Below, one piece after another: positions 761 through 45,926 of a stretch of 51,522 nucleotides of DNA (position 1 is its first letter; each line of letters starts with the position of its first letter). A program made the translations under genes and the position numbers. The notes under the pieces are model-generated. The model saw nothing but the letters and a program-made list of their open reading frames with translations, was not told the DNA's origin and made no database searches. The DNA comes from a virus (taxonomy: Duplodnaviria > Caudoviricetes). The DNA is taken from positions 1 to 51,522 of IMG/VR virus record IMGVR_UViG_3300039149_000010, one strand, 5' to 3'.

Positions 761-2542
761 CTAGAATACCGTGTCTTTACCCACTGCAATAGGCATTGGG
801 TTTTGTTCGGGTACAGCTTCTGCCTCTTGCCAATTGAAAAATCCGATACCCCCTTTGAAACGTAACGGGATATGCTCGTTCCCAACATACCGATAACGGT
901 GTTTACCCACATAAAGTAGGGCCTTGCCTGCTGGATACTGTTCAGTTAAATCACGCTGTCTGGTGTCTTTCATATCAATCATATTTCGGGAAACATAATA
1001 ATGATGATAGTACAGCGGAATAACTATATCTGCGTCCTCTTCGATTGAACCGCTGCCCTTGCCATCATGAATGGTCGGAATTTTACTTGCTCGGCCGTCC
1101 ATCTTGCGTCCGATTTGAGATGTCCCAACGACAACCAATCCGGTAGTTCGCGCCAAGTCCTGAAGCGTATTGCTTACTTTGGTGGTGGTGTCGTAAATGC
1201 CATTTTTACTGCTGGTCTTTAGACGACTGATACTATCAATCATCAACCATTGAATCGGTAATTGTTGCTGCCATCGCTTAACCCACGTAACAATACTATC
1301 CACGTCAGGAGAGCCACCGTCATAAATGCGAGATAGCGATGGCTCAAGTAATTCCTGCTTTTCGCGTACCCGTTTCAATTCTTGTGCGCTGCATGTCCCT
1401 TCGATAATCTTTTCAATCGGAACACGGGCGGCATAGGCTACCATTCTATCGAACCAAATTTCGGGCGGTGTTTCGGTTGTCACCCATAACCCCGGCGCTT
1501 GCCAGAGGAACGCCATTGAAATAGACACGGCTAATGTACTCTTGCCCATGCCCGTAGCACCTAGAATGGTGTGGATTCGGTGTGGGCGAAATGTACCCAA
1601 CGCTTCATCCAATGCGTTAATGTGAGAGAATAACCCCGTTTTGATGACACGGCCTTTAAGGGTCTGCCGTGCCAACACCTGAATGGGAATAGACACCTCA
1701 TCGGTCGGAAGTTCTGTAGCCCGTTTCCGCAATTCCGACAGGCTGCTTTCCAGATAGAGTGTGCAGAAGTCGGCCAAGTCCTGAGAGCCGTCTAGCTTCA
1801 TGTCTACCCGCTTGGCATGGGGCAATTGTTCCAGCCACTTGCCCGCCGTCTTATTGCCCTTTTCATCGTCTTCCAGGCAGATGTAAATCGCGCCCGACCA
1901 TTTGCTTTGGAGTTCTGCAAGGTTGCTTTCGCTTAACGGATTTTCGCCGCCCTCTTGCGCCGCCGCCGGTACACCGTAATGCTGAGCGACCACCACCGAA
2001 GCCGCACCGTTGCACAATACCAGCGCCGGTGGGTTATCCTTTATGGCTCTATCCAACCCATACCAGCACGGACTAAAACCAGTCTGCGAGGTGAAGCGCT
2101 TTTCGTTGCTATCGCCGTCGATGAAACGGTAACGAAACCATTGTTTGCCGCTGGCATCAGTGACGGGATAACGCAAACATGGACGTTCCTGGTAGGTAAT
2201 TTTTTCCCACCCGGCCTTACTGTACACCTCCGGCTTTACCCCATGCGCTTGGGCGTAATCGGCTAAATCGGCGTAAGCGCGTTTACTGGTGGTTTCGGGC
2301 GTGCTGCCGTTGACCGGTAGTTCAATGCCCAACTTCGTAGCCAATTCGTATAGGCTGCCACTCTCGCCCGACACCTTGTCGTCATAGCAGCCGTGTTCAC
2401 CGTCGTCTATTTTGAGGGTCAATCCCAGACTGTCACTCCCAACACTCCATGGACGGTTGGCCCGGTATTGGTCTGTACCATCCTTGCGCAGTTTGAACGA
2501 TTGCAACGCGGCTAAAACTTTGTCAGCAGTGGTGTTATTCAT
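761..2542 (-). CDS. Primase-helicase (Toprim-like N-terminus plus DnaB/SF4 helicase)
   Basis: Walker A GATGMGKST, Walker B LMIDSI, SQIGR and GSGSIEEDADIVI DnaB motifs; Toprim-like WYGL...LVLCNG...EDDEKG. Confidence 0.88.
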   Translation of the reverse strand: MNNTTADKVLAALQSFKLRKDGTDQYRANRPWSVGSDSLGLTLKIDDGEHGCYDDKVSGESGSLYELATKLGIELPVNGSTPETTSKRAYADLADYAQAHGVKPEVYSKAGWEKITYQERPCLRYPVTDASGKQWFRYRFIDGDSNEKRFTSQTGFSPCWYGLDRAIKDNPPALVLCNGAASVVVAQHYGVPAAAQEGGENPLSESNLAELQSKWSGAIYICLEDDEKGNKTAGKWLEQLPHAKRVDMKLDGSQDLADFCTLYLESSLSELRKRATELPTDEVSIPIQVLARQTLKGRVIKTGLFSHINALDEALGTFRPHRIHTILGATGMGKSTLAVSISMAFLWQAPGLWVTTETPPEIWFDRMVAYAARVPIEKIIEGTCSAQELKRVREKQELLEPSLSRIYDGGSPDVDSIVTWVKRWQQQLPIQWLMIDSISRLKTSSKNGIYDTTTKVSNTLQDLARTTGLVVVGTSQIGRKMDGRASKIPTIHDGKGSGSIEEDADIVIPLYYHHYYVSRNMIDMKDTRQRDLTEQYPAGKALLYVGKHRYRYVGNEHIPLRFKGGIGFFNWQEAEAVPEQNPMPIAVGKDTVF

Positions 2543-3848
2543 ACGGATTCCCCATTAAGGCAAACACGCTGCCCTCTGGCGCTCCATTTCGACTGGACTT
2601 GCGCCGCACATCTGGCATCCCTTTCCCTTGCCATTCCATCACCCAACTTTGCACGGTTTCCACACTGCGTAAGTCACATCCTGGACAACGCCCTTGATAC
2701 CATTCCCAGAATACAAGTAATTGGTCGGGATGGGTTAACGGTTCAACCAAATTGTATTTTGCATACCCGTCTTTGCCGGTGCTACGCAAAACGTTTACAA
2801 TGCGTCCGTTTCGGAAACCGGCCTCTTTGGTCGTAGCCTTAACCGCATCGTACCATCTATCCTGCCAATGCTTCGCCTCAGAAATGTTCCCCGGCGCAAG
2901 GGGCTTCTTGTACTGTGCTTTCGGCGTTTCATCGGTTGGCTTTACTGCCGCCACAACATCGTCCAATGCATCACCCCATGCAATCACCCCCCGTTCAAGC
3001 AAATCATCAACATAAGCGCGGGCTGCTATCGGGTCGCCACTAAACGAATGCCCCGACATTGACGCGAGGCGGTCTGCTGCGCTGTAATTCCATGTTTGCG
3101 GATTTGAAACCATGTACGCATTGTATAGCAATTCCCACTCATTCTTTTTTCGCCGTGCAGTTATCAATTCACCGTCCATGTTTTCGATAGGCATAAGACG
3201 AAAAGAATATTTCCCGCTGGTAAACACATGCTTATCAGGCACTTTATCACTGTACACCCAATAACCGCCATTAGCCTCATAAGCGAATTTGGTGAAGCCC
3301 GGTAGGTTTTCGTAAAATACCTTGCGGATGAAATCACTATCCAAATCATTGACCGGCGTTGCTATCGGACTATCCAATTCACCAAAGGGCTGCCCCTTAA
3401 CATCGGTTGGTTTTTCAGCATTGGATTGCACCGCATCGCCAGAGGCGATAGAGTCTTTTATCTTTGTTGACGGTTCTAAGGACGGTTCGGGTGACATCTG
3501 GGTGTCAGGGGTAGGGGTGACATCCTTAGTGTCAGGGGTGACATCTATGTCGGGGGTCTGTTCTGACTTGTATGGTGGGCGTAATGGCGCGTTTTCAAAG
3601 GCCGTACAATAGATAGTTGTCTTACCCGGTCGTCGCTTTTGAATCTTCAGTATATCCTTTTTGAGAAGCGACTTAATTAACCGCTGGATAGTACGTTCTG
3701 AATAGCCTGTTTTCCATGCAATCAACCCGACACTGGGCCAGATGTTTTCTCCTAAGTGGTCGGCGTGGTCAGTCATCGCCAACAATACCAGTTGCTCATT
3801 CGTTGGCAGGTCTAAATCCCAGACTTGCCCCATAATTTTACCACTCAT
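2535..3848 (-). CDS. Replication initiator with N-terminal winged HTH
   Basis: LVLLAMTDHAD...WPSVGLIAWKTGYSERTIQRLIKSL is typical of phage Rep HTH domains. AGGGAG RBS precedes the ATG at 3848. Internal iterons; adjacent to the helicase. Confidence 0.8.
   Translation of the reverse strand: MSGKIMGQVWDLDLPTNEQLVLLAMTDHADHLGENIWPSVGLIAWKTGYSERTIQRLIKSLLKKDILKIQKRRPGKTTIYCTAFENAPLRPPYKSEQTPDIDVTPDTKDVTPTPDTQMSPEPSLEPSTKIKDSIASGDAVQSNAEKPTDVKGQPFGELDSPIATPVNDLDSDFIRKVFYENLPGFTKFAYEANGGYWVYSDKVPDKHVFTSGKYSFRLMPIENMDGELITARRKKNEWELLYNAYMVSNPQTWNYSAADRLASMSGHSFSGDPIAARAYVDDLLERGVIAWGDALDDVVAAVKPTDETPKAQYKKPLAPGNISEAKHWQDRWYDAVKATTKEAGFRNGRIVNVLRSTGKDGYAKYNLVEPLTHPDQLLVFWEWYQGRCPGCDLRSVETVQSWVMEWQGKGMPDVRRKSSRNGAPEGSVFALMGNPYE
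3489..3557. repeat. Iterons, probable replication origin inside the initiator gene
   Basis: Three GGGTGACATC copies (3489, 3515, 3536), each followed by TGTCA/TGTCG GGGG, forming short TGACA...TGTCA palindromes just after the HTH-coding region, as in lambda O-type genes. Confidence 0.7.
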
Positions 3849-38241: not shown

Positions 38242-39384
38242 CTACTCCTTCACCGGGACACCCAGGACGAGCTTTTGCCCGTGCTGGCTCTTTTCCAGTT
38301 CGCGTTTGATTTTGAGCGTGTCCTCTGACTCGCTCACCCGTGTTTCCTTAGCGGTGGAAGCCGCACGCGGGGTTAAGGCCACCAGCTTTTCTACTTTTGC
38401 CAGACGGTCTCCGAGATCATCAAATCCTTTGGCCTTTTCAGCCAGCGGCGCAAGCTCTTTGACAATACCTGCCATTTCGATGAATGCCGGAATAAGCTCT
38501 TTCATTTCCGTCTGGACATCGTTCGCTTCGGTTGCCAGCGCCTTGACCTGCTGTGTTAATTCCATGACGGCCATTGGCATCGGTTCGTCTTCTTCTTCCT
38601 CTTGCATTTCTTCCATTGGCAAGTCTTCAACGATTTCAGTTGCCGTACCCATCAGTTCAGCAATGGCCATATTCGCAAAAGCATCCAGCTTGGTTTCGTC
38701 GTCGGTGAGTTCGCGTCCCATGTCCATAATTCGGGCACGCATGTCCTCAATTAGACCCTTCATTTTTGTTGCGTCAAACTCTTTGCGTTCCAGACCGGTC
38801 TTGTCTAAAGCCGTCCGCACGCCCTCCATTGCCGCTTCCAATTCGCCCCCGGCATCTTTACCGAGTAACTTTTCAAACCAGTTGCGGCGGTCTTGCTTTG
38901 CAGTTTCGCTCATTGGTTGACCTCCTAATACGAAACTAGGCGTAATACCATTCGCCGCCTTATCCAGCGGCAACGAAGATGTTTCGACCTTGAGTATTTC
39001 CTCAAATTCGTGGTCGGTTTCATCCCCTTGTTTATGCCCGAAACCAATACTTGCGCCCCAAGCCGTATCACTACTTTCGATGGCATCCCAGATTTCCGCC
39101 CGATTAATTAACATCGGTTCATCGTCTGCAAACCGTTGTAAGTCGATGACTTCGTTAGGCAATTCCTGAGATAGCTCCAATAAAAACGGGCCTACCATTT
39201 TAGCCCCGATGATTTCGCCTATCGGCTCGCCCCCATGCCAATACTTGTGCGGTGTAGGGCGAAAGTTTTTAACGTACTGTTCCAGCGCTTTGGTTTTAAC
39301 AATGTCGCCCTCTCTATCCCGATAGGCATTGGACGACACCAGAAACATATACCGGCGGTTATTGGCTTTGAATACAACGTTCAT
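38242..39384 (-). CDS. Prohead protease / scaffold protein
   Basis: SSNAYRDREGDIV, YWH, GASIGF, ETSSLP...AAN protease-like motifs; acidic coiled-coil C-terminus. Confidence 0.75.
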   Translation of the reverse strand: MNVVFKANNRRYMFLVSSNAYRDREGDIVKTKALEQYVKNFRPTPHKYWHGGEPIGEIIGAKMVGPFLLELSQELPNEVIDLQRFADDEPMLINRAEIWDAIESSDTAWGASIGFGHKQGDETDHEFEEILKVETSSLPLDKAANGITPSFVLGGQPMSETAKQDRRNWFEKLLGKDAGGELEAAMEGVRTALDKTGLERKEFDATKMKGLIEDMRARIMDMGRELTDDETKLDAFANMAIAELMGTATEIVEDLPMEEMQEEEEDEPMPMAVMELTQQVKALATEANDVQTEMKELIPAFIEMAGIVKELAPLAEKAKGFDDLGDRLAKVEKLVALTPRAASTAKETRVSESEDTLKIKRELEKSQHGQKLVLGVPVKE

Positions 39385-41372
39385 TAAGCCGCCTTTCCTA
39401 ACATACGGCGAACAAAACGCACCGCCCGTAAGCGCCCGCGTGCGGGTTGGTCGGTGGGCAGCAAGGCACACCCACAACGATAGCCGCCACAAATCAATTT
39501 ACTGGATTGTGGCAATAAGCCGGTGCGGCGGTAATCTTTCATACGGTGAATTTGCCCATTCAATTTGAGACACGTTTTACAATGTTCCTTGACCGGATTC
39601 ACCACCCACATGAAGCGCTGATTACGGTTCGCCAGTTCTAATCCCCGGTAATAAATCGGGTTGACTGACTTGTTGACCCACATTTCTGCCCGACGTTGCA
39701 AGGCATCAAAGGTAAAGGGGGTGTCGAATAATTCCTTAACGAATTTGGATATAAACGGACTTTGCTCAGCCCGCCATACCGACAACGCTTGCCGCGCTTC
39801 GTCGTCTAATTGCGGCATGGGAGCGCCGCCGTCCGCCAGACCATCGCGTAAAGCGTCCGCCCCGGCTTCCAATAGTGCCAAGCGCAACGCCGGTCGCAAT
39901 ACCGCCTTGCTGATAACATTGTTCTGGACTTGCATTGCCAATTCGATAAACCGCTGTTTAAAAGTGCGTTGGGTTGCCGACAACGCTTTTTGCGCTTCCT
40001 CGGTGTCATCTATGACAACATCCTGTGTCGGCATTTGTTCGGGCGCGGCCAGTTGCGGCGGTTGCATTTGTTCGGGTGTTTCCGGGTCGCTGTCATCTAA
40101 ACGGACAATACGACCGGATTCATCGGTAATGACATCCCGCACGGCTTCCACTTGGTTAGCCAATAACCGGCGTTGTTCGTCCGGTGTAAGTTTGCCTTCC
40201 AATGTCAGGATAATATTGGCCCAAGTGCTGGCCTTGTCCGCTTCCTGTTGATCCTCTTCAGGGTCGCGGTACTGGAACTCAAAGTTAAGTCCTTCCGGCA
40301 AAACCTGATTTAACAGCCGTTCCAGAGATTTATACAGCGTGCCAAGCAATTGCCCTTTGGACTTCTGATGCAAGACCTCGCTTTGGGTTGCTGTACCTAA
40401 CCCGTTACCGGTCAGTTCCCACAAATCCTGAATGTCTACACCCAACCCAAGTGCGATTTCCTTGACGTTCAATTCTTTATACGCCACATAATCAAACTTT
40501 TCAGGCGTGACGTTATACGGGATACTTTCAACCGAAATCGGTTGGTCGGTTTGCATCCCGTAGAGGCGTAGGACGTTGCCCCACGTGCTGCCGAAATCGG
40601 TTTGCCTATCCCTGTCCAATTGCTCAAAGGCCGCCTGCAATTGTTTATCCTTGATATTCTGGAATAGCATTAACCCCGGCGGCGGGTTGTCGTCTAGCCG
40701 CAACTCCACATACCGGTTCATCAGAATGTCACGTTGTACCGGCGCGATACATCGGGAGAGCGCACACTCCCCATACTGTCGGTAACTGTTCTCTAGTGTT
40801 TCCGGCATATCCAGCAAACGCACCACCCGGCTAAAGTGGAGTACGTGCAATTCGCTGTCAATGTCCATGTAAATGACCGGATAGGTCGGGTCGCCGGTCG
40901 GGTAGCAGCGCAGACTGTCCAATACATTAATCTGAGTTAATGGCCCGGTGAGTATTTCCGCCGGGTTGCCCGCGCCGATAAGTTCCACAAACGCGCCATT
41001 ATCGTAACGGGTGTAATCCTTGACCACCTTACTGACGAAAGTTTCCCACCCCTCTCCAAAACAGGCGTTCCACAATACATCCTGGTACAGTTCCGCCTCT
41101 TTAACAGCGCCGTCAATTTCCCAGGGCGTACTTACAACTCGTTTAGTTGTGGTGGCAACGCCGGACTTAAAGAGCGTATTGTAATCATGGGTAGCAAACT
41201 GATGCAATGTCCATTCGCGCTCGCGTGTGCCTTCCGGCGGCAATAACGGCCCGCGCCCGTACTCACTCCACCAGAGTGCATTTTGACCGGTTTCGCCTTT
41301 TAATAGATTTGGTTTTTTCTGGACACTTTGATCTAGCGCCCGTTGAATGAGTGGCCCGCGTTGGTCTGTCAT
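39384..41372 (-). CDS. Portal protein fused to a MuF-like head morphogenesis domain
   Basis: Follows terL; portal-like N-terminal ~450 aa; C-terminal EHCKTCLKLNGQ...CGGYRCGC. Confidence 0.75.
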   Translation of the reverse strand: MTDQRGPLIQRALDQSVQKKPNLLKGETGQNALWWSEYGRGPLLPPEGTREREWTLHQFATHDYNTLFKSGVATTTKRVVSTPWEIDGAVKEAELYQDVLWNACFGEGWETFVSKVVKDYTRYDNGAFVELIGAGNPAEILTGPLTQINVLDSLRCYPTGDPTYPVIYMDIDSELHVLHFSRVVRLLDMPETLENSYRQYGECALSRCIAPVQRDILMNRYVELRLDDNPPPGLMLFQNIKDKQLQAAFEQLDRDRQTDFGSTWGNVLRLYGMQTDQPISVESIPYNVTPEKFDYVAYKELNVKEIALGLGVDIQDLWELTGNGLGTATQSEVLHQKSKGQLLGTLYKSLERLLNQVLPEGLNFEFQYRDPEEDQQEADKASTWANIILTLEGKLTPDEQRRLLANQVEAVRDVITDESGRIVRLDDSDPETPEQMQPPQLAAPEQMPTQDVVIDDTEEAQKALSATQRTFKQRFIELAMQVQNNVISKAVLRPALRLALLEAGADALRDGLADGGAPMPQLDDEARQALSVWRAEQSPFISKFVKELFDTPFTFDALQRRAEMWVNKSVNPIYYRGLELANRNQRFMWVVNPVKEHCKTCLKLNGQIHRMKDYRRTGLLPQSSKLICGGYRCGCALLPTDQPARGRLRAVRFVRRMLGKAA

Positions 41373-41378
41373 AATTCC

Positions 41379-43649
41379 CTATCGGAAGTTAAAAAGCAAA
41401 TAACGGAGTGCATCGACTAAATGGTCGTCGATCTTTAAGGGTTTCGGTTCGCCCGCTTCGCTGGAGCTGAACTTGTCATCATACCGATACCCCTGCAATT
41501 CACGAATTAGGTTCTTACAGCGTGGGTGAATGTGCAAGGAGCGCTTGCCGCTGCCGTCACACAAAAAGCGCCGGACAACCTTTATACCATCCGCTACCCG
41601 ATGCGAGGCCGCGCCGTTGAAGATGTCTTTGTCGGTTAAGCGCCGCCGCAGTTCTGCCGCGCTGCTATCCACTAATGCCAAATCCGGTTCATGATACGAC
41701 CAGGACATCACCTCGTTAATACTGGCCTCTGGCAGTTGCAACGTTTTATAGTATTCGGCAAAAATGTTGAAGCCACCATCGTTGCGTTGGTTCGCTAACA
41801 CAAACGCCCTCGGATGATACCCCGGTGTTCCCAAACCGCCGCCTTCGGCATAGCCATCGTCAACGCCCCAAAACACCGGCAAGTCAGGATTGTATTCGGC
41901 CGCTTCGGTGACGTTTTCGGCGTAACTGAAGTTGTCATATATCGCGCCTTCGGCTGCTACCCACAACCCCTCCAACCCGCGCTGGCGACGTATGCCGGTC
42001 AGTTTATTGAGGTTTGTCATCACCTCACGCCCTCGGCCAGTCAGGTTGCCCGCGCTGTCATACAGCATAGGATTATGAATATGCAATTGTTCAAACATTT
42101 CCAGGTCTCCCACACTATGGCGGGCTAACAGCCAATGCCCTGGATACGACGGGTTACAGTCACTTAGGACTTGCGGGTGGATGGTATTACCCGCCCGCCC
42201 GTCTGCCCGCGCCGTCAGCATTTCGTAGGCCGTTAGTGGGATGTCCTCAACCTGATTGATATAAATGTAGTCAAACTCGGCACTTAAGAATTTACCCGGT
42301 TTATCCAGACCACCTAAAAGGATTTCGCCGCCGTTGCTGTATAGGTAGCGTTGCGGACGTTCACCGCCAAATACCTGCACCGGACTATCGGGATGTTCGG
42401 GGGGTAACGGCAGGACTTTTCGCTCGAAGGTTTCGCACGCGCTGTTAATCAGGTTATTGTAGGTATCGCGTACCCACAGCCCCTTTGCGTTAGGGGTATT
42501 GCACATGAGCCAATGAAACCAAACCAACGCCCCGTAAGTTTTGCCGGTGTTGTGATGCCAAGAACCTTCAGCTAAATAATGCTCATAACCCGGAACATGT
42601 AAATCATAATAATAATCGTTTCTCACAAATTCTATACTTGCAATGGTGCTTACAGGTACGGTATAATTAGGGTATCGTTCAAATAGTAATGAAAGGTTCT
42701 CTAATGGCTCGCCAATCGGCTTGTCAAAAGAATGATATGTTAGTTCGTCAAATGGTTGCGGACGGTGCAACGTTAACTGAGATTGCAAAAGCCGTTGGCA
42801 CAAACCGAACTCGTGTACGGGAGTATATTGAACGGGAGGATATTCCGCATAACCCAAATTGGCGAAGTACCGGGCATCGCCTAGAACGTCACGGTAATTG
42901 GAAGGGTGGTCGTATAGTTGACAAAAATGGCTATGTGCTGGTAAAAGTTGATGACCATCCGAATTGTAACCGTCACGGTTATATGCGAGAACATCGCCTT
43001 GTAATGGAACAGCAATTGGGTCGCTATTTAACACCCTCTGAAGTTGTGCATCACATTGATGGCAATAAGCAGAATAACCACCCTGACAATTTGAAGTTGT
43101 TCCATCGAAACGCCGATCACCTACGCAAAACTTTGAAGGGTAAGCGTCCGAATTGGACATCGAAGGGATGGGCGAATATGTGCAAACCGCGTCCCCGTAG
43201 GACAAAGAAGCAATAGCACGCCACCCCTCCGGTGTTAACACACGATGCCCTAATGTAGCAATAAACGAATTGCCATTTTCCAACGTAACACGATACAAAT
43301 TAGCGATACCTTTAATAAATGGGGGTGTCGCTTTCGCTTTTCCGTATCGCGTCAATACTGTTGGGGATGTCTCTGCAACATAATAATCTTCAATGGCAAC
43401 ATAATTACCGGTGTCAGGGTCATAAATACGTGTTTCCCCGGCAACACAATTGTAAGGCCCGTAGAGGTTGATTTCATGGGAGCGCCGGTTGTCAGCCACC
43501 AGTTGAGCAAAACCGCCCCGTTTCTCCAGCGTAGCAAATTCAGGGTAAAGATCAACGTCGTCTGCTGTTGCCGTTTGGACACCCAACCCATAGTCAATGA
43601 GTTCATCGTCACTGCAAGGTGGTGTAACTGTCAGCACGTTCAATGACAC
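41379..43649 (-). CDS. terL: Terminase large subunit, intein-containing (about 456 aa after splicing)
   Basis: Walker A GPYN|TGKT split by the intein; YIYINQVED Walker B region; DCNP coupling motif; RNase H-like GVDDG and DDHLVDALRY. Confidence 0.93.
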   Translation of the reverse strand: MSLNVLTVTPPCSDDELIDYGLGVQTATADDVDLYPEFATLEKRGGFAQLVADNRRSHEINLYGPYNCVAGETRIYDPDTGNYVAIEDYYVAETSPTVLTRYGKAKATPPFIKGIANLYRVTLENGNSFIATLGHRVLTPEGWRAIASLSYGDAVCTYSPIPSMSNSDAYPSKFCVGDRRFDGTTSNCQGGYSAYCHQCDAQLQRVLNSDPIAVPLQGDVLAYNRDGYNSDGHQLLPAHSHFCQLYDHPSNYRDVLGDARYFANLGYAEYPPVQYTPVHEFGLCQRLLQSQLTLHRPQPFDELTYHSFDKPIGEPLENLSLLFERYPNYTVPVSTIASIEFVRNDYYYDLHVPGYEHYLAEGSWHHNTGKTYGALVWFHWLMCNTPNAKGLWVRDTYNNLINSACETFERKVLPLPPEHPDSPVQVFGGERPQRYLYSNGGEILLGGLDKPGKFLSAEFDYIYINQVEDIPLTAYEMLTARADGRAGNTIHPQVLSDCNPSYPGHWLLARHSVGDLEMFEQLHIHNPMLYDSAGNLTGRGREVMTNLNKLTGIRRQRGLEGLWVAAEGAIYDNFSYAENVTEAAEYNPDLPVFWGVDDGYAEGGGLGTPGYHPRAFVLANQRNDGGFNIFAEYYKTLQLPEASINEVMSWSYHEPDLALVDSSAAELRRRLTDKDIFNGAASHRVADGIKVVRRFLCDGSGKRSLHIHPRCKNLIRELQGYRYDDKFSSSEAGEPKPLKIDDHLVDALRYLLFNFR
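42638..42667 (+). promoter_or_regulatory. Promoter for the antisense HNH, inside the intein coding sequence
   Basis: TTGCAA-N18-TATAAT. Confidence 0.65.
42704..43216 (+). CDS. HNH homing endonuclease encoded antisense inside the intein
   Basis: N-terminal HTH (ATLTEIAKAVGTNRTRV), NWKGG, GY..EHRLVMEQQLGRYL...EVVHHIDGNKQNNHPDNL; GAAAGG RBS before the ATG at 42704 (alternative ATG at 42689). Confidence 0.9.
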   Translation: MARQSACQKNDMLVRQMVADGATLTEIAKAVGTNRTRVREYIEREDIPHNPNWRSTGHRLERHGNWKGGRIVDKNGYVLVKVDDHPNCNRHGYMREHRLVMEQQLGRYLTPSEVVHHIDGNKQNNHPDNLKLFHRNADHLRKTLKGKRPNWTSKGWANMCKPRPRRTKKQ

Positions 43650-44076
43650 GGCGCATAAAATCCTTTGGGTCTTTTCCGAGGGCGTTCAATGCAGACACGA
43701 ATCCGGGTATAACTTCAATAACTTCTGTCGGTAGCCCGCGCAATAAGCGCATTTTATCGGTAGCAGTTGCCGCAGCAATAACGGCGGCCTTGCCGTCCAT
43801 TTCTTCAATGACATCTGGTTTGCCCGCATGGTCAAGCATCTTGTAAGCAATCGACTCAAAGAGGTTTGCAAGCTCTGGTCTTTTTTCAATGACTACTTGG
43901 TCAGGGGGTGGGTTTTGTTCACCATTAAACCACCGGCTTAATGTACGTGCCGGGATGCCAACTTCTTTTGCTGTCCGCGTCAACGCGCCTTTGATGTCAG
44001 GATACCCGGCGGCCTGAAGCAATAAACAGGCACTCGCTCGAAATTTATCGTCGTATTGTTTGCGCTTCTTTTTCAT
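43609..44076 (-). CDS. Terminase small subunit-like HTH protein
   Basis: QYDDKFRA...LTRTAKEVGIPARTLSRW; directly upstream of terL. Confidence 0.7.
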   Translation of the reverse strand: MKKKRKQYDDKFRASACLLLQAAGYPDIKGALTRTAKEVGIPARTLSRWFNGEQNPPPDQVVIEKRPELANLFESIAYKMLDHAGKPDVIEEMDGKAAVIAAATATDKMRLLRGLPTEVIEVIPGFVSALNALGKDPKDFMRRVIERADSYTTLQ

Positions 44077-44082
44077 GTTACC

Positions 44083-45588
44083 TCAAAATACAAATCCAGC
44101 CGCCACGTTCCCCGGCTCGCCCCACTGTGGAAGCGCTTTGTTGCCCGGTCTGCAGGGTAGCGGGGCATCCCAACATTGCCCTTGTGCTTGCGCTGTAAAT
44201 ATCCCAGCCTCATAGCGGGCTTGAGTGGGTAGCGTAGGCAACGGTTCACCGGGCGCATGAATAGGCCAGCGGACGACCGTCACAACCACAAACAGTACCA
44301 GCGCGGGTGTCCATATCCGTAAGGGACGAACAAGCGATAAGCTGAGAGTCAACGGGATAAGCCATAACACCACCCCCGCAAAACGAATATTCGGGGCGGT
44401 CAAAAACCAATATACGGTTGCCATCAGGACGATGCTGAGTAGTCGCCAACGAATAGGATTGTGTTGGCGTATCAGATATAGACCGATAACTAGGGTCATC
44501 ATCACGGGCAACCAGTACAGCAGGATACTTACCCCATGCACCGACCGCCAGATGAAATAATCTTGTATCCAATTGGGATTATTTAACACCACGTCCGGCG
44601 GGGCGGTTGACGTTTTCGCCCAAGATGCAATCCAATCCGCTGTATGCTGAACCCGTTCCATTGGCATTGTCCAGGGCGTGGGAATGCGGGTTATGGCAAT
44701 CGGAAAGACAGCATACCCTGATACAATAATACTCCGTAAAGTGGCAGGAATGAGCGCACTAAAACTCCACACCATAGCCCATTCCAGTTTACGCTTACGT
44801 AGGGTCAATACTGCCAACCCCAGCGCGATGACCACCGCTGAGAGTTTAATTGCAATCATTACACCAGCCAATAGCCAGATAAAACGTCGATCGGGAGTAT
44901 CTTGTAGGACTTCCCAAAACAGCAGCGCCCCCAACAACCAAATGGCGGGGTCGGTCATCAGTCCGTTAATTGGTGCAACCACACATTCAAAGCCGGTCAA
45001 CACCAACAGGATAACCGCAATAGGCCAATGCTTCACACGACGCAGGATGCTATCGGCAAAACCCGCTACTGCTACACCGAACAATAACCCGTAGGCCAGT
45101 CCGTAACCGGTGGCATGATAGCCGCCGGACATTTGCAGCGCCGGATAAAAAGCAAAGGCATTGTTAAACGCCAATCGCTCGTGGAGGTTGCCCAACCCCG
45201 GTACAGCGGCGTACCCCTGTATCCAGCGCACGGACTGAGTATGGTATAGCCCGGTGTCGAAGCCAACGCTTTCTTGACTTTGCGCTCCCACCGCGCCGTT
45301 TGCCAGTAGTACCCAGATCACCAACAGGACAAGTAAGGCCGCTTGGCTCGTCTGAAGCTGCTGACGTAACCAATGGCGATTATGCCAGATGCCCCACACC
45401 CCCACACTGAATACGCTAATCTGTGCGAGGCTGTTCCAGGGGGCTAGCAAGTTCCAGATTTGCCCGGTCACAATCGTCAGCAGCCAGCCATACCAGAACG
45501 CACGCCATAATGACGCGCGGGTAAGGGTTGCCCCAATGCCGGTAAAGACAAGCCCGAATGTGACCCATAAGCCCAATGCCGAAAGCAT
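44083..45588 (-). CDS. Polytopic membrane protein, GT-C-like glycosyltransferase (start uncertain)
   Basis: More than ten hydrophobic helices; DTGLYH...PGLGNLHERLAFNN first-loop motif; CWDAPLPC near the C-terminus. Confidence 0.65.
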   Translation of the reverse strand: MLSALGLWVTFGLVFTGIGATLTRASLWRAFWYGWLLTIVTGQIWNLLAPWNSLAQISVFSVGVWGIWHNRHWLRQQLQTSQAALLVLLVIWVLLANGAVGAQSQESVGFDTGLYHTQSVRWIQGYAAVPGLGNLHERLAFNNAFAFYPALQMSGGYHATGYGLAYGLLFGVAVAGFADSILRRVKHWPIAVILLVLTGFECVVAPINGLMTDPAIWLLGALLFWEVLQDTPDRRFIWLLAGVMIAIKLSAVVIALGLAVLTLRKRKLEWAMVWSFSALIPATLRSIIVSGYAVFPIAITRIPTPWTMPMERVQHTADWIASWAKTSTAPPDVVLNNPNWIQDYFIWRSVHGVSILLYWLPVMMTLVIGLYLIRQHNPIRWRLLSIVLMATVYWFLTAPNIRFAGVVLWLIPLTLSLSLVRPLRIWTPALVLFVVVTVVRWPIHAPGEPLPTLPTQARYEAGIFTAQAQGQCWDAPLPCRPGNKALPQWGEPGNVAAGFVF

Positions 45589-45926
45589 AAACACCCTGAT
45601 GCTAAAATACAAAATTCCGCCGGGGCGGACTTTTTCGTGTGGCGTAGGATGGATTTGCACCACCCCGCCTGATGGAATACCCACCACGCGCCCCTATGGG
45701 CAACGCCGTAAGCGCAGGTAAATTTTGGTTGGATAAAGAAATACGCAGGAATTACATTCTCCTTTCATGAACGAATGCAATCCGCTGTTATTCCCAAAAT
45801 TGGTTGCACCCCCGCGCCAGAAATGCCAAAAGCGAAAACCCGCTTTACCGCGCGGGCTTTCAGAGAATGGATACTTCGAGAAAAGAAAGTCTCTCAGTAC
45901 ACCATACCATAAAATAAGGTTAAGTG

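What the first reader, a model, noticed from the sequence alone, without database searches (positions are those of the whole stretch)
42549..43448. Intein whose homing endonuclease is a separate gene on the opposite strand
Seen: a 300-aa intein (Cys1...HHN/Thr) splits the terL Walker A motif. Between its N- and C-terminal splicing blocks, where an in-frame LAGLIDADG domain normally sits, the protein has no recognisable motif. The opposite strand of that interval encodes a complete HTH-HNH endonuclease (42704-43216) with its own TTGCAA-N18-TATAAT promoter and GAAAGG RBS. Both strands stay open for about 170 codons, in the register where codon first positions coincide and antisense stops are not automatically avoided. 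Inference: a two-strand composite selfish element. The intein removes the antisense-derived spacer from the essential terminase, while the endonuclease is expressed independently of late terminase translation (possibly early, during replication) and its transcript is antisense to terL.
Basis: partly seen in the sequence, partly recalled or inferred. Interest (0 to 1): 0.9.

Follow-up and report, generated by a model that had tools for sequence, protein, structure and literature searches.

The report
Terminase intein with antisense HNH gene
A phage packaging gene is interrupted by a self-splicing protein element whose middle part is read on the opposite DNA strand as an intact HNH nuclease gene; this layout recurs in dozens of phages, including cultured ones, and is a new nuclease variant of an arrangement already described for other nucleases.

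Summary
Window 42549-43448 (-) is a 300-aa class-1 intein that splits the TerL Walker A motif (GPYN|TGKT). A 170/175-aa HTH-HNH_3 gene lies on the + strand (42704/42689-43216) inside it.

It is not a one-off. 28 of 34 related IMG/VR loci, 2 of 2 MAG loci and 8 cultured Pectobacterium/Dickeya phages carry a homologous HNH gene antisense to a TerL P-loop intein. The codon register was checked in 28 of 28 IMG/VR loci, both MAG loci and phage Koroua, and is the same in all.

Substitutions fall on intein codon position 3 in the splicing parts. In the overlap they fall on the HNH wobble position. So the HNH frame is under purifying selection, and the intein frame there is only kept free of stops.

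AlphaFold2 models the insert in the intein frame as unstructured (pLDDT about 40) and the HNH as a confident fold that resembles I-HmuI. Three mini-inteins lacking the insert sit next to three different HNH-bearing lineages.

The kind is already in print for other nucleases (antisense LAGLIDADG and VSR-like; out-of-frame EndoVII-like). My searches found no report of an antisense HNH. Expression timing, antisense regulation and the cleavage target are untested.

Verdict: real, a new variant of a known kind, moderate interest.

The parts
41379..43649 (-). terL (large terminase) precursor ORF, 756 aa from the first GTG. A gene caller's version in the protein collection is 735 aa (P0003).
   Evidence: ORF; phrog_2 terminase large subunit, 4.8e-21, residues 365-753; 208 phage records match; in all 25 rows listed the match begins at residue 319-368, and no record covers 80% or more of the query. 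P0003.
43449..43649 (-). N-extein, ending in ...YGPYN (first half of Walker A)
42549..43448 (-). Class-1 intein, 300 aa, from Cys1 to His-His-Asn300, followed by Thr+1
   Evidence: translation. Intein_splicing 4e-7, 30.4 bits, below the curated cut-off of 35.8. HINT fold, Foldseek to the Mtu RecA mini-intein at E 1e-7, TM 0.82-0.86 on the target.
43173..43448 (-). N-terminal splicing part (intein residues 1-92; blocks A and B, with T65..H68)
   Evidence: pLDDT 95-98; invariant C1, T65 (nearly invariant), H68.
42660..43172 (-). Intein-frame spacer (residues 93-263), antisense to the HNH gene. Kept free of stops but not conserved as protein.
   Evidence: pLDDT about 35-50 and no secondary structure for residues 96-262; substitutions peak at intein codon position 2; absent from mini-intein relatives.
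42549..42659 (-). C-terminal splicing part (residues 264-300; blocks F and G, ...YYYDLHVPGYEHYLAEGSWHHN)
   Evidence: pLDDT 82-98; invariant D282, P286, Y291, G295, H299, N300.
41379..42548 (-). C-extein, beginning TGKT (second half of Walker A), then the rest of the ATPase and the nuclease domain
   Evidence: Terminase_3C 1.9e-5.
42704..43216 (+). HTH-HNH_3 endonuclease gene, 170 aa (175 aa if the ATG at 42689 is used), lying wholly inside the intein on the opposite strand
   Evidence: 22 homologues, with invariant H97, H117, N125, N129, N136, H139. AlphaFold2 pLDDT 87.5. I-HmuI 1u3e_M, probability 0.98, E 0.075.
42691..42696 (+). GAAAGG, a possible ribosome-binding site 7 nt before the ATG at 42704
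   Evidence: Read. Homologue alignments begin at query residues 6-7, which fits the 42704 start.
42638..42667 (+). Promoter-like TTGCAA-N18-TATAAT. The -35 hexamer lies in the conserved C-terminal splicing part and the -10 hexamer lies in the insert.
   Evidence: 10 of 12 matches, but 3 sites found against 2.6 expected in shuffles. A consensus match only.
43302..43342 (+). Terminator-like hairpin plus T-rich tail, 86 nt after the HNH stop
   Evidence: 13 pairs, 5 of them G-C; 1 found against 1.1 expected. Weak.

Best explanation
This is a composite mobile element made of two nested parts that use both DNA strands.

(1) A class-1 intein sits in the Walker A codons of terL. Its N-terminal part (residues 1-92) and C-terminal part (residues 264-300) form one HINT domain. 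The domain is translated with a spacer of about 170 aa, and the intein cuts itself out to give an intact GPYN-TGKT P-loop.

(2) The spacer has no protein function of its own. It is the reverse-complement reading of a separate HTH-HNH_3 gene, with codon first positions facing each other. That gene is translated from its own start on the opposite strand.

Selection keeps the HNH protein sequence. In the intein frame, selection only forbids stop codons and anything that would block folding of the HINT domain.

By analogy with I-HmuI-type enzymes, the HNH enzyme most likely nicks or cuts alleles that lack the element in co-infecting phages. Those alleles could be intein-less terL at the P-loop codons, mini-intein alleles, or both. 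Repair from the occupied allele would then copy intein and HNH together.

What is shown: the anatomy, conservation of the arrangement and register, the frame-specific selection, the disordered spacer, and the presence/absence polymorphisms at both levels.

What is inferred: splicing, separate expression, nuclease activity, the target, and homing.
For: Anatomy.

Recurrence:
- 28 of 34 IMG/VR loci found with the intein profile carry a homologue of the HNH (40-53% identity) on the strand opposite the intein. All 28 are in the same register.
- 2 of 2 MAG loci show the same.
- 8 cultured phage records (Pectobacterium phages Koroua, Amona, Ymer, Abuela, Sabo, Pappous, Taid and Dickeya phage Setonix) match the HNH at 42-43% identity. 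The match lies inside a 754-aa gene next to the portal gene that is labelled 'hypothetical protein'. That gene is TerL (Terminase_6N and Terminase_6C) with an intein at AFVAGFG|C...HHN|TGKS. The register in Koroua is again position 1 on position 1, by coordinates.
- The TerL frame has 0 stops through the intein part in 34 of 34 loci.

Selection:
- In 10 pairs of loci, the non-overlap intein codons differ at positions 1/2/3 in 285/309/648 cases (1305 codons). The overlap differs in 405/926/390 cases (1877 codons). The excess is therefore at the HNH wobble position.
- In 5 Ymer-group phages, variable sites are 12/5/152 in the exteins and 8/22/10 in the overlap. The density of variable sites in the overlap is half that of the exteins (0.057 against 0.121 per nt). 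The HNH ORF is intact in 5 of 5.
- HNH-type residues are invariant in 22 of 22 sequences.
- Stop avoidance in the window: P = 0.0009 to 0.04, depending on the null model.

Structure:
- The spacer has pLDDT about 40 and no secondary structure, while the flanks score above 95. The flanks match mini-intein crystal structures.
- The HNH model has pLDDT 87.5. Its only meaningful PDB fold match is the HNH homing endonuclease I-HmuI.

Mobility:
- Only 8 of 836 phage records with a homologous TerL contain the intein. The 22 other rows listed match only from residue 340.
- Escherichia phage KW1E_UTAR (71% identical C-extein) has the uninterrupted AFVAGFG-TGKSQT.
- The element sits in TerLs whose C-exteins do not align at all with the window's. 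Five of 20 have an identity measure of 0.09 or less, while their HNH is 0.32-0.43 and their splicing parts 0.39-0.52.

Function of the intein-bearing TerL: the cultured phages with this TerL form plaques (PMC11445585, passages read). Their TerL must therefore work.
Against: There is no direct evidence of splicing, of an HNH transcript or protein, or of cleavage. No RNA run holds the locus.

The promoter-like site is not above chance. No + strand promoter-like site was found upstream of the HNH in Koroua, although an AAGGA lies about 7 nt before its ATG.

The Foldseek match to I-HmuI is weak by E-value (0.075). The PDB sequence profile search found only HTH matches.

HNH identity correlates with extein identity (Spearman 0.72). 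Much of the spread within TerL clades may therefore be vertical descent and not recent homing.

HNH start codons in the other loci were picked by a simple rule.

The non-overlap class includes some spacer codons outside the HNH ORF.
Confidence: 0.8

Rival explanations
1. The HNH gene is a parasite of the intein and not its partner. On this reading it is a free-standing homing endonuclease gene whose target is the loop of HNH-less mini-inteins. It spreads among mini-intein alleles on its own, and the intein merely tolerates it. This could be true in addition to the best explanation.
For: Three mini-inteins lacking the insert are each closest to a different HNH-bearing lineage. P0004 matches the window at 0.76, L068 matches L067 at 0.73, and P0009 matches L053 at 0.75, measured on the splicing parts. 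The next-best HNH-bearing match is 0.56 for P0004, so the insert is polymorphic independently of the intein. The insert is at the same loop and in the same register everywhere, as precise homing would give. The nearest neighbour by HNH and by splicing part agrees in only 11 of 21 sequences.
Against: All close pairs (identity 0.6 or more) do agree between HNH and splicing part, and the two identities correlate (Spearman 0.67). That fits one gain followed by co-descent and repeated loss. No free-standing close relative of this HNH was seen: 0 of 37 more distant HNH loci lie near splicing parts, and they reach at most 57% identity over short stretches. The element also occurs in unrelated TerL families, which requires movement of the whole intein.
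Confidence: 0.2
2. The HNH is the packaging-associated HNH that many cos phages encode next to their terminase genes. On this reading it serves DNA packaging, not homing.
For: It lies within the terminase locus. Phage HNH proteins that assist terminases are known (mentioned in PMC11855218, passage read).
Against: A TerL about 75% identical over the aligned part (P0004) has the same intein without the HNH insert, so the gene is dispensable. Only 8 of 836 phage records with a homologous TerL carry it. The family hit is HNH_3 with an N-terminal HTH, and the fold match is to the homing enzyme I-HmuI. The phage record has direct terminal repeats according to IMG/VR, which does not call for cos cleavage (inference).
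Confidence: 0.05
3. The antisense HNH ORF is a decaying relic with no current function, and the long intein is on its way to becoming a mini-intein.
For: Mini-intein relatives exist. No expression data exist.
Against: The ORF is intact, and catalytic-type residues are invariant in 22 of 22 distinct sequences that are only 36-50% identical to the window's. Substitutions concentrate at the HNH wobble position. A relic on the antisense strand would collect stops quickly. Free-standing relatives already have stops in all three opposite-strand frames in 25 of 37 short matched segments, which shows that open antisense frames are not the default.
Confidence: 0.04
4. The insert is removed at the RNA level (a group I or II intron carrying an HNH gene), and the intein-like flanks are coincidental.
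For: HNH genes are common in phage group I introns (established knowledge).
Against: No Rfam intron family matches window 42000-44000 even at E up to 1. The TerL frame is open through the insert in 34 of 34 loci, which an intron does not require. The flanks fold as a HINT domain and carry all splicing residues.
Confidence: 0.01

Closest known systems
Non-canonical actinobacteriophage inteins with a homing endonuclease on the antisense strand (LAGLIDADG or VSR-like) or in another frame (EndoVII-like). Gosselin, Arsenault and Gogarten, bioRxiv 10.1101/2025.01.02.630785.
   Same: An intein, often in TerL, whose region between the splicing blocks is unstructured in the intein frame, while an overlapping ORF encodes a recognisable endonuclease. 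The proposed origin is invasion of a (mini-)intein by a free-standing endonuclease gene. The element still appears to move.
   Different: The nuclease here is an HTH-HNH_3 enzyme. That paper lists HNH only as an in-frame domain. The family here comes from metagenomic phages and Pectobacterium phages, not actinophages. I add position-specific substitution evidence and a fixed codon register across more than 30 loci.
Cyanobacterial DnaX intein with an overlapping LAGLIDADG ORF. Gorbalenya 1998, NAR 26:1741, known to me only through citations, as the paper is not held. Phillips et al., bioRxiv 10.64898/2026.09.14.751524: I read the abstract, section 17 and passages.
   Same: A disordered in-frame spacer. 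A high-confidence endonuclease in an overlapping frame that is under purifying selection while the intein frame is relaxed. Coexisting mini-inteins. Secondary invasion proposed as the origin.
   Different: A LAGLIDADG nuclease, not HNH. The host gene is bacterial dnaX, not phage terL. The 2026 preprint describes a +2 ORF on the same strand, whereas the 2025 preprint calls the DnaX case anti-sense.
I-HmuI, the HNH homing (nicking) endonuclease of Bacillus phage SPO1 (PDB 1u3e)
   Same: It is the only nuclease among the Foldseek matches shown, and the only row with both a long alignment and high probability (probability 0.98, 24% identity over 90 columns). It has an HNH core plus a separate helix-turn-helix DNA-binding module.
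   Different: I-HmuI is encoded inside a group I intron on the sense strand, where no second reading frame has to be kept open. The domain order differs: here the HTH is N-terminal, while the C-terminal position of the I-HmuI HTH is recalled. The E-value is weak (0.075).
ShiLan-type 'hidden' out-of-frame HNH insertions in phage DNA methylase genes (Arsenault et al., Genes 2025, PMC11855218; abstract and passages read)
   Same: An HNH gene overlaps a host ORF that stays open through the insertion. The distribution is sporadic and homing-like.
   Different: The HNH is in another frame of the same strand. There are no splicing domains, so the insert is thought to remain in the host protein as a loop.
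Fractured genes with split inteins and a free-standing VSR-like endonuclease gene between the halves (Dassa et al. 2009, PMC2677866; abstract from the search listing and the reference list read)
   Same: A free-standing endonuclease gene lodged at the endonuclease position of an intein.
   Different: There the host gene and intein are split into two genes and spliced in trans. Here the precursor stays a single polypeptide because the antisense frame is open.

Membership tests
Class-1 intein (HINT domain) | Cys/Ser at position 1, block B Thr-x-x-His, and C-terminal His-Asn followed by Cys/Ser/Thr at +1 | tested here: met
   C1, T65..H68, H299-N300 and T+1. C1, H68, H299 and N300 are invariant in 23 of 23 aligned inteins. 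The +1 residue is T, S or C in all 21 distinct loci listed.
Class-1 intein (HINT domain) | HINT fold formed by the N- and C-terminal parts | tested here: met
   AlphaFold2 pLDDT is above 95 for residues 1-92 and 264-300. Foldseek to the Mtu RecA and Ssp DnaB mini-inteins gives E about 1e-7 and TM on the target 0.74-0.86. The Pfam Intein_splicing hit is below its curated cut-off (30.4 against 35.8 bits).
Class-1 intein (HINT domain) | In-frame insertion at a conserved site of a host protein, with intein-less alleles existing | tested here: met
   It splits GPYN|TGKT. All 25 listed rows for TerL homologues align only after the intein. For the Koroua homologue, the empty allele in KW1E_UTAR has identical flanks.
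Class-1 intein (HINT domain) | Protein splicing activity | not testable with these tools
   Indirect only: plaque-forming Pectobacterium phages carry the homologous arrangement in their only TerL.
HNH_3 / I-HmuI-like HNH homing endonuclease | Profile match to the HNH_3 family above the curated threshold | tested here: met
   PF13392 at 37 bits against a cut-off of 24.8, E 2.5e-9. PHROG 10730 at 4.6e-29.
HNH_3 / I-HmuI-like HNH homing endonuclease | Conserved His/Asn residues of the beta-beta-alpha metal finger | tested here: met
   H97, H117, N125, N129, N136 and H139 are invariant in 22 of 22 sequences. The assignment of which residue is the general base or the metal ligand is recalled, not tested.
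HNH_3 / I-HmuI-like HNH homing endonuclease | Fold similarity to a solved HNH homing endonuclease | tested here: inconclusive
HNH_3 / I-HmuI-like HNH homing endonuclease | Site-specific nicking or cleavage of the allele lacking the element, and super-Mendelian inheritance | not testable with these tools
   Only the sporadic distribution speaks for it.
Non-canonical inteins with an antisense or out-of-frame homing endonuclease gene | A complete endonuclease ORF overlapping the region between the splicing blocks, on the other strand or in another frame, while the intein frame stays open | tested here: met
   window plus 28 of 34 related loci; 2 of 2 MAG loci. Koroua.
Non-canonical inteins with an antisense or out-of-frame homing endonuclease gene | The in-frame spacer lacks a recognisable fold, while the overlapping ORF folds as a nuclease | tested here: met
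Non-canonical inteins with an antisense or out-of-frame homing endonuclease gene | Purifying selection on the endonuclease frame and relaxed selection on the intein frame in the overlap | tested here: met
   Substitution counts by codon position. No formal overlapping-gene dN/dS model was run.
Packaging-associated phage HNH (terminase helper) | Conserved, required partner of the terminase in related phages | tested here: not met
   It is absent from the closely related TerL P0004 and from 828 of 836 phage records with a TerL homologous to Koroua's.
Group I/II intron carrying an HNH gene | Match to an intron RNA family | tested here: not met
   No intron family at E up to 1 in window 42000-44000.

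The most novel reading that the evidence does not exclude
The element is a two-tier parasite with independent mobility at each tier. The intein homes into P-loop codons of otherwise unrelated terminases. The antisense HNH gene homes separately into HNH-less mini-inteins.

The opposite-strand placement would then be selected, not accidental. It frees nuclease expression from late terL translation. It may also let the nuclease transcript damp terL expression from the occupied allele until homing is done.

The fixed position-1-on-position-1 register would be the one register in which this HNH sequence can be kept while the other strand stays open.
Probability: 0.2. Interest if true: 0.75.

Novelty: new variant of a known kind. 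Interest (0 to 1): 0.5.

Why it matters
This adds a fourth nuclease class (HTH-HNH_3) to the short list of inteins whose homing endonuclease is a separate, overlapping gene. It also shows that such an arrangement can be old, widespread and stable, and is not only a rare accident. It was found in more than 30 loci, across TerL families that no longer align, and always in one codon register.

It gives a clean natural example of an antisense overlap in which one strand is selected for protein sequence and the other only for being free of stops and harmless. That makes it useful for calibrating methods that detect overlapping genes.

It supports the 'splicing domain first, endonuclease invades later' view of intein evolution. 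Three mini-intein/long-intein pairs are available as before-and-after states.

There are practical points as well:
- Annotation pipelines miss it. In the cultured Pectobacterium phages, TerL is labelled 'hypothetical protein' and the HNH is not annotated.
- Those phages make the system testable at the bench.

Tried and rejected
Searches and checks that led nowhere:
- Close relatives of the window's intein were not found in IMG/VR by single-sequence patterns. The profile was needed.
- tblastn of the intein against cultured phages found only 2 Bacillus phage records, over residues 1-100 at 27.6% identity. The Pectobacterium phages were found through the HNH protein instead.
- Sequencing runs: no RNA holder is listed. 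The only holder is a DNA run that may be the source sample. I did not lay reads.
- HIP1 (GCGATCGC), as a hint of a cyanobacterial host, gave 0 matches. The host remains unknown.
- The Rfam scan for an intron found nothing. One chance-level snoRNA row (E 0.94) was ignored.
- The PDB sequence profile search with the HNH alignment gave only HTH matches.
- The Foldseek top row for the HNH model (FapR, rmsd 13.9) was rejected as a two-domain artefact.
- The promoter as evidence was rejected, because matches are at the chance level.
- I considered a tree-based congruence test and a formal dN/dS model. I used pairwise identities and position counts instead. These are cruder.
- Complex prediction, the search of protein representatives, the protein-atlas search and read laying were not used, because no open question needed them.

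Rows dropped:
- One search left out L057 (cut by the contig end), L065, L066 and L068-L072 (no HNH, or only part of the intein matched), and L069 (only the N-part matched).
- Identical copies L045 and L047-L050 were collapsed into L044.
- L052 (99.9% identical to L051) was dropped.

Literature: 8 full-text searches found no report of an HNH gene antisense to an intein. The supplementary tables and figures of bioRxiv 10.1101/2025.01.02.630785 could list further nuclease types that I could not see. Gorbalenya 1998 is not held.


Full report
**What is there**

The window is a complete IMG/VR virus record of 51,522 bp with direct terminal repeats. On the - strand, downstream of an HTH gene that resembles a small terminase, lies a 756-codon open frame (41379-43649). 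After it comes a portal gene. Residues 365-753 of that frame match large terminases (PHROG 2, 4.8e-21). Among the 208 cultured-phage records that match it, none covers 80% or more of the protein. In all 25 rows listed, the match begins at residue 319-368.

Window 42549-43448 (-) translates into exactly 300 residues from Cys1 to His-His-Asn, followed by Thr. The flanks read ...YGPYN | TGKTYG, so the insertion is inside the Walker A motif.

On the + strand, wholly inside this intein, is an ORF at 42689-43216 with a second ATG at 42704 preceded by GAAAGG. Its product scores above the curated Pfam threshold for HNH_3 (37 against 24.8 bits). It has weak helix-turn-helix hits near its N-terminus and matches PHROG 10730 'HNH endonuclease' at 4.6e-29. 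It is the only HNH match in the phage.

**Is the double open frame more than chance?**

Across the HNH ORF the intein frame has no stop, while the other two antisense frames have 5 and 9. Three null models were run on the HNH gene:
- Permuting synonymous codons gives an open intein frame in 0.36% of 20,000 trials.
- Shuffling codon order gives it in 0.09%.
- Recoding with the phage's own codon usage gives it in 4%.

The comparative data are far stronger than these figures.

**Relatives**

A search of the protein collection with the intein region found 27 proteins. Nine TerLs of different Pfam terminase families have long inteins that align over the whole 300 residues at 31-43% identity. P0004 is a TerL 75% identical over the aligned part. 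Its intein has only 131 residues and lacks exactly the middle part.

A profile of these inteins retrieved 34 IMG/VR loci:
- In 34 of 34, the TerL frame is open through the matched intein part, and the insertion is at the P-loop (G...G | [T/S/C]GK[T/S]).
- In 28 of 34, tblastn finds a homologue of the window's HNH (40-53% identity) on the strand opposite the intein. In 28 of 28 of these, the two frames have the same register as in the window.
- The six without it are short or mini-inteins (L065, L066, L068) or partial matches (L070-L072).
- The 26 usable loci plus the window give 22 distinct intein nucleotide sequences.

Two further loci from bacterial MAGs show the same arrangement and register (2 of 2).

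As a control, I examined 37 loci with more distant relatives of the HNH. None has intein splicing parts nearby (0 of 37). In 25 of 37, all three opposite-strand frames contain stops even within the short matched segment.

**Cultured examples**

tblastn of the HNH protein against 50,697 phage records gave its best matches (42-43% identity over residues 31-160) in seven Pectobacterium phages (Koroua, Amona, Sabo, Ymer, Abuela, Taid, Pappous) and Dickeya phage Setonix.

In Koroua the match lies on the strand opposite a 754-codon gene that is annotated 'hypothetical protein' and sits next to the portal gene. That gene has Terminase_6N and Terminase_6C domains and an intein of 288 residues at AFVAGFG | CVHPH...HIHHN | TGKSQT. 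The antisense ORF of 232 codons hits HNH_3. By the coordinates it is again in the position-1-on-position-1 register.

The paper describing these phages does not contain the words intein, HNH, endonuclease or homing (PMC11445585, term search).

Of 836 phage records with a TerL homologous to Koroua's, only these 8 cover the intein. The 22 other rows listed match from residue 340 only. Escherichia phage KW1E_UTAR (71% identity) has the uninterrupted AFVAGFG-TGKSQT. Because these phages are plaque-forming isolates with a single TerL, the precursor must yield a working terminase. This is inference.

**Which frame is under selection?**

In this register, intein codon position 2 is the HNH wobble position, and intein position 3 is HNH position 2.

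| Data set | Region | Differences at intein positions 1/2/3 |
|---|---|---|
| Ten pairs of loci, 62-79% nucleotide identity | Intein codons outside the overlap (1305 codons) | 285/309/648 |
| Ten pairs of loci, 62-79% nucleotide identity | Overlap (1877 codons) | 405/926/390 |
| Closest pair, L062/L064 | Overlap | 11/67/12 |
| Five Ymer-group phages, variable sites | Exteins | 12/5/152 |
| Five Ymer-group phages, variable sites | Overlap | 8/22/10 |

The pattern outside the overlap is the normal one for a coding frame. In the overlap, change accumulates at the HNH wobble position.

In the Ymer group, the density of variable sites in the overlap is half that of the exteins (0.057 against 0.121 per nt). 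The HNH ORF is intact in 5 of 5.

In an alignment of 22 HNH proteins that are 36-50% identical to the window's, H97, H117, N125, N129, N136 and H139 are invariant.

The HNH frame is therefore the protein-coding frame of the insert. The intein frame is kept open but is otherwise free to change. This is the same pattern that Phillips et al. report for the DnaX intein (bioRxiv 10.64898/2026.09.14.751524, section 17).

**Structure**

With a 23-sequence alignment, AlphaFold2 models intein residues 1-92 and 264-300 at pLDDT 95-98 as beta-strands. Residues 96-262 score about 35-50 with no secondary structure. Foldseek matches the model only to intein splicing domains (Mtu RecA mini-intein E 1e-7, TM on the target 0.82-0.86; Ssp DnaB mini-intein). 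No nuclease match to the insert was found.

**Mobility at two levels**

Level one is the intein within terL. The element occurs in TerLs whose C-exteins cannot be aligned with the window's. Five of 20 have an identity measure of 0.09 or less, while their HNH is 0.32-0.43 and their splicing parts are 0.39-0.52. Empty alleles are the rule among cultured relatives.

Level two is the HNH within the intein. Three mini-inteins are each nearest to a different HNH-bearing lineage:
- P0004 is closest to the window (0.76).
- L068 is closest to L067 and L058 (0.73 and 0.71).
- P0009 is closest to L053 (0.75).

HNH and splicing-part identities correlate (Spearman 0.67). The nearest neighbours agree for every close pair, and for 11 of 21 sequences overall. 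One ancient gain followed by co-descent and repeated precise loss is the simpler reading. Repeated homing of the HNH gene into mini-inteins is not excluded. HNH identity also correlates with extein identity (0.72), so much of the descent within TerL clades is probably vertical.

**Expression**

Nothing could be tested. The TTGCAA-N18-TATAAT match exists (10 of 12), but the region holds no more promoter-like sites than its shuffles do (3 against 2.6). A weak terminator-like hairpin follows the HNH stop. In Koroua the scan finds no + strand promoter-like site upstream of the HNH, although AAGGA lies about 7 nt before the ATG. No RNA run holds the locus. Early expression and an antisense effect on terL remain speculation.

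**Comparison with what is known**

The kind is in print. The 2025 preprint of Gosselin, Arsenault and Gogarten reports actinophage inteins, many of them in TerL, in three forms: anti-sense LAGLIDADG, anti-sense VSR-like, and frame-3 EndoVII-like endonuclease ORFs. It finds unstructured in-frame spacers and proposes invasion of inteins by free-standing endonuclease genes. It credits the anti-sense LAGLIDADG case to Gorbalenya 1998 and Gogarten 2002. It lists HNH only as an in-frame domain.

A 2026 preprint treats the cyanobacterial DnaX intein in the same way. Arsenault et al. 2025 describe out-of-frame HNH insertions without splicing domains.

My eight full-text searches found no antisense HNH in an intein. 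The supplements were closed.

The finding is therefore a new variant of a known kind, with a different nuclease class. It brings unusually broad and clean comparative support, and it has unannotated representatives in cultured phages.

**Verdict**

The statements about regulation and timing are unsupported. Novelty is moderate. I put the confidence at 0.8 that this is a functional intein plus antisense HNH homing-endonuclease unit. Interest is 0.5.

Noticed in passing
L073 (Pectobacterium phage Koroua, PQ008972.1) 1571-3835 (-) and 2944-3642 (+); the same in Ymer, Abuela, Amona, Sabo, Pappous, Taid and Dickeya phage Setonix: In these GenBank records the large terminase is annotated 'hypothetical protein', its intein is not noted, and the antisense 232-aa HNH gene is not annotated at all. 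The product 'terminase' is attached to a 163-aa CDS that is more likely the small subunit.
   Followed up: partly
window 43609-44076 (-): A 155-aa HTH protein (HTH_3, 1.1e-4) lies directly upstream of terL, probably the small terminase. It overlaps the longest possible terL start (GTG 43649) by 41 nt. A gene caller's TerL is 735 aa, which suggests a later start.
   Followed up: no
window 44083-45687 (-): A 534-aa ORF with many hydrophobic stretches that look like transmembrane segments lies next to the packaging genes, an unusual neighbour for a terminase module. No search was run on it.
   Followed up: no
window 39384-41372 (-): The portal protein (Phage_portal, 3.2e-5, below the curated cut-off) has a long C-terminal extension ending in a Cys-rich stretch (CKTC...CGGYRCGC).
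   Followed up: no
L065 2501-about 3000 (+), L066 1966-2361, L068 2501-2890: Related TerL P-loop inteins without the HNH insert (about 165, 132 and 130 aa). L068 shares the unusual start CIAPWTRI with the HNH-bearing L058 and L067. This gives a mini/long pair for which DNA is available.
   Followed up: partly
L073 3768-3789 (+): A G+C-rich hairpin followed by TTTGTTGGTT lies on the HNH strand 126 nt after the HNH stop, inside the N-extein codons of terL in Koroua. It is terminator-like but within chance expectation (3 found, 1.4 expected).
   Followed up: no
literature: The two Gogarten-lab preprints describe the Synechocystis/cyanobacterial DnaX intein endonuclease differently. The 2025 preprint calls it 'anti-sense LAGLIDADG' and the 2026 preprint calls it a '+2 ORF'. 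I could not read Gorbalenya 1998 to settle which is right.
   Followed up: no
window 42704-43216 (+): The HNH protein has a single Phe in 170 residues. In this register, Phe followed by a codon starting with A always creates a stop on the other strand, so the overlap may shape the amino-acid composition of the nuclease.
   Followed up: partly
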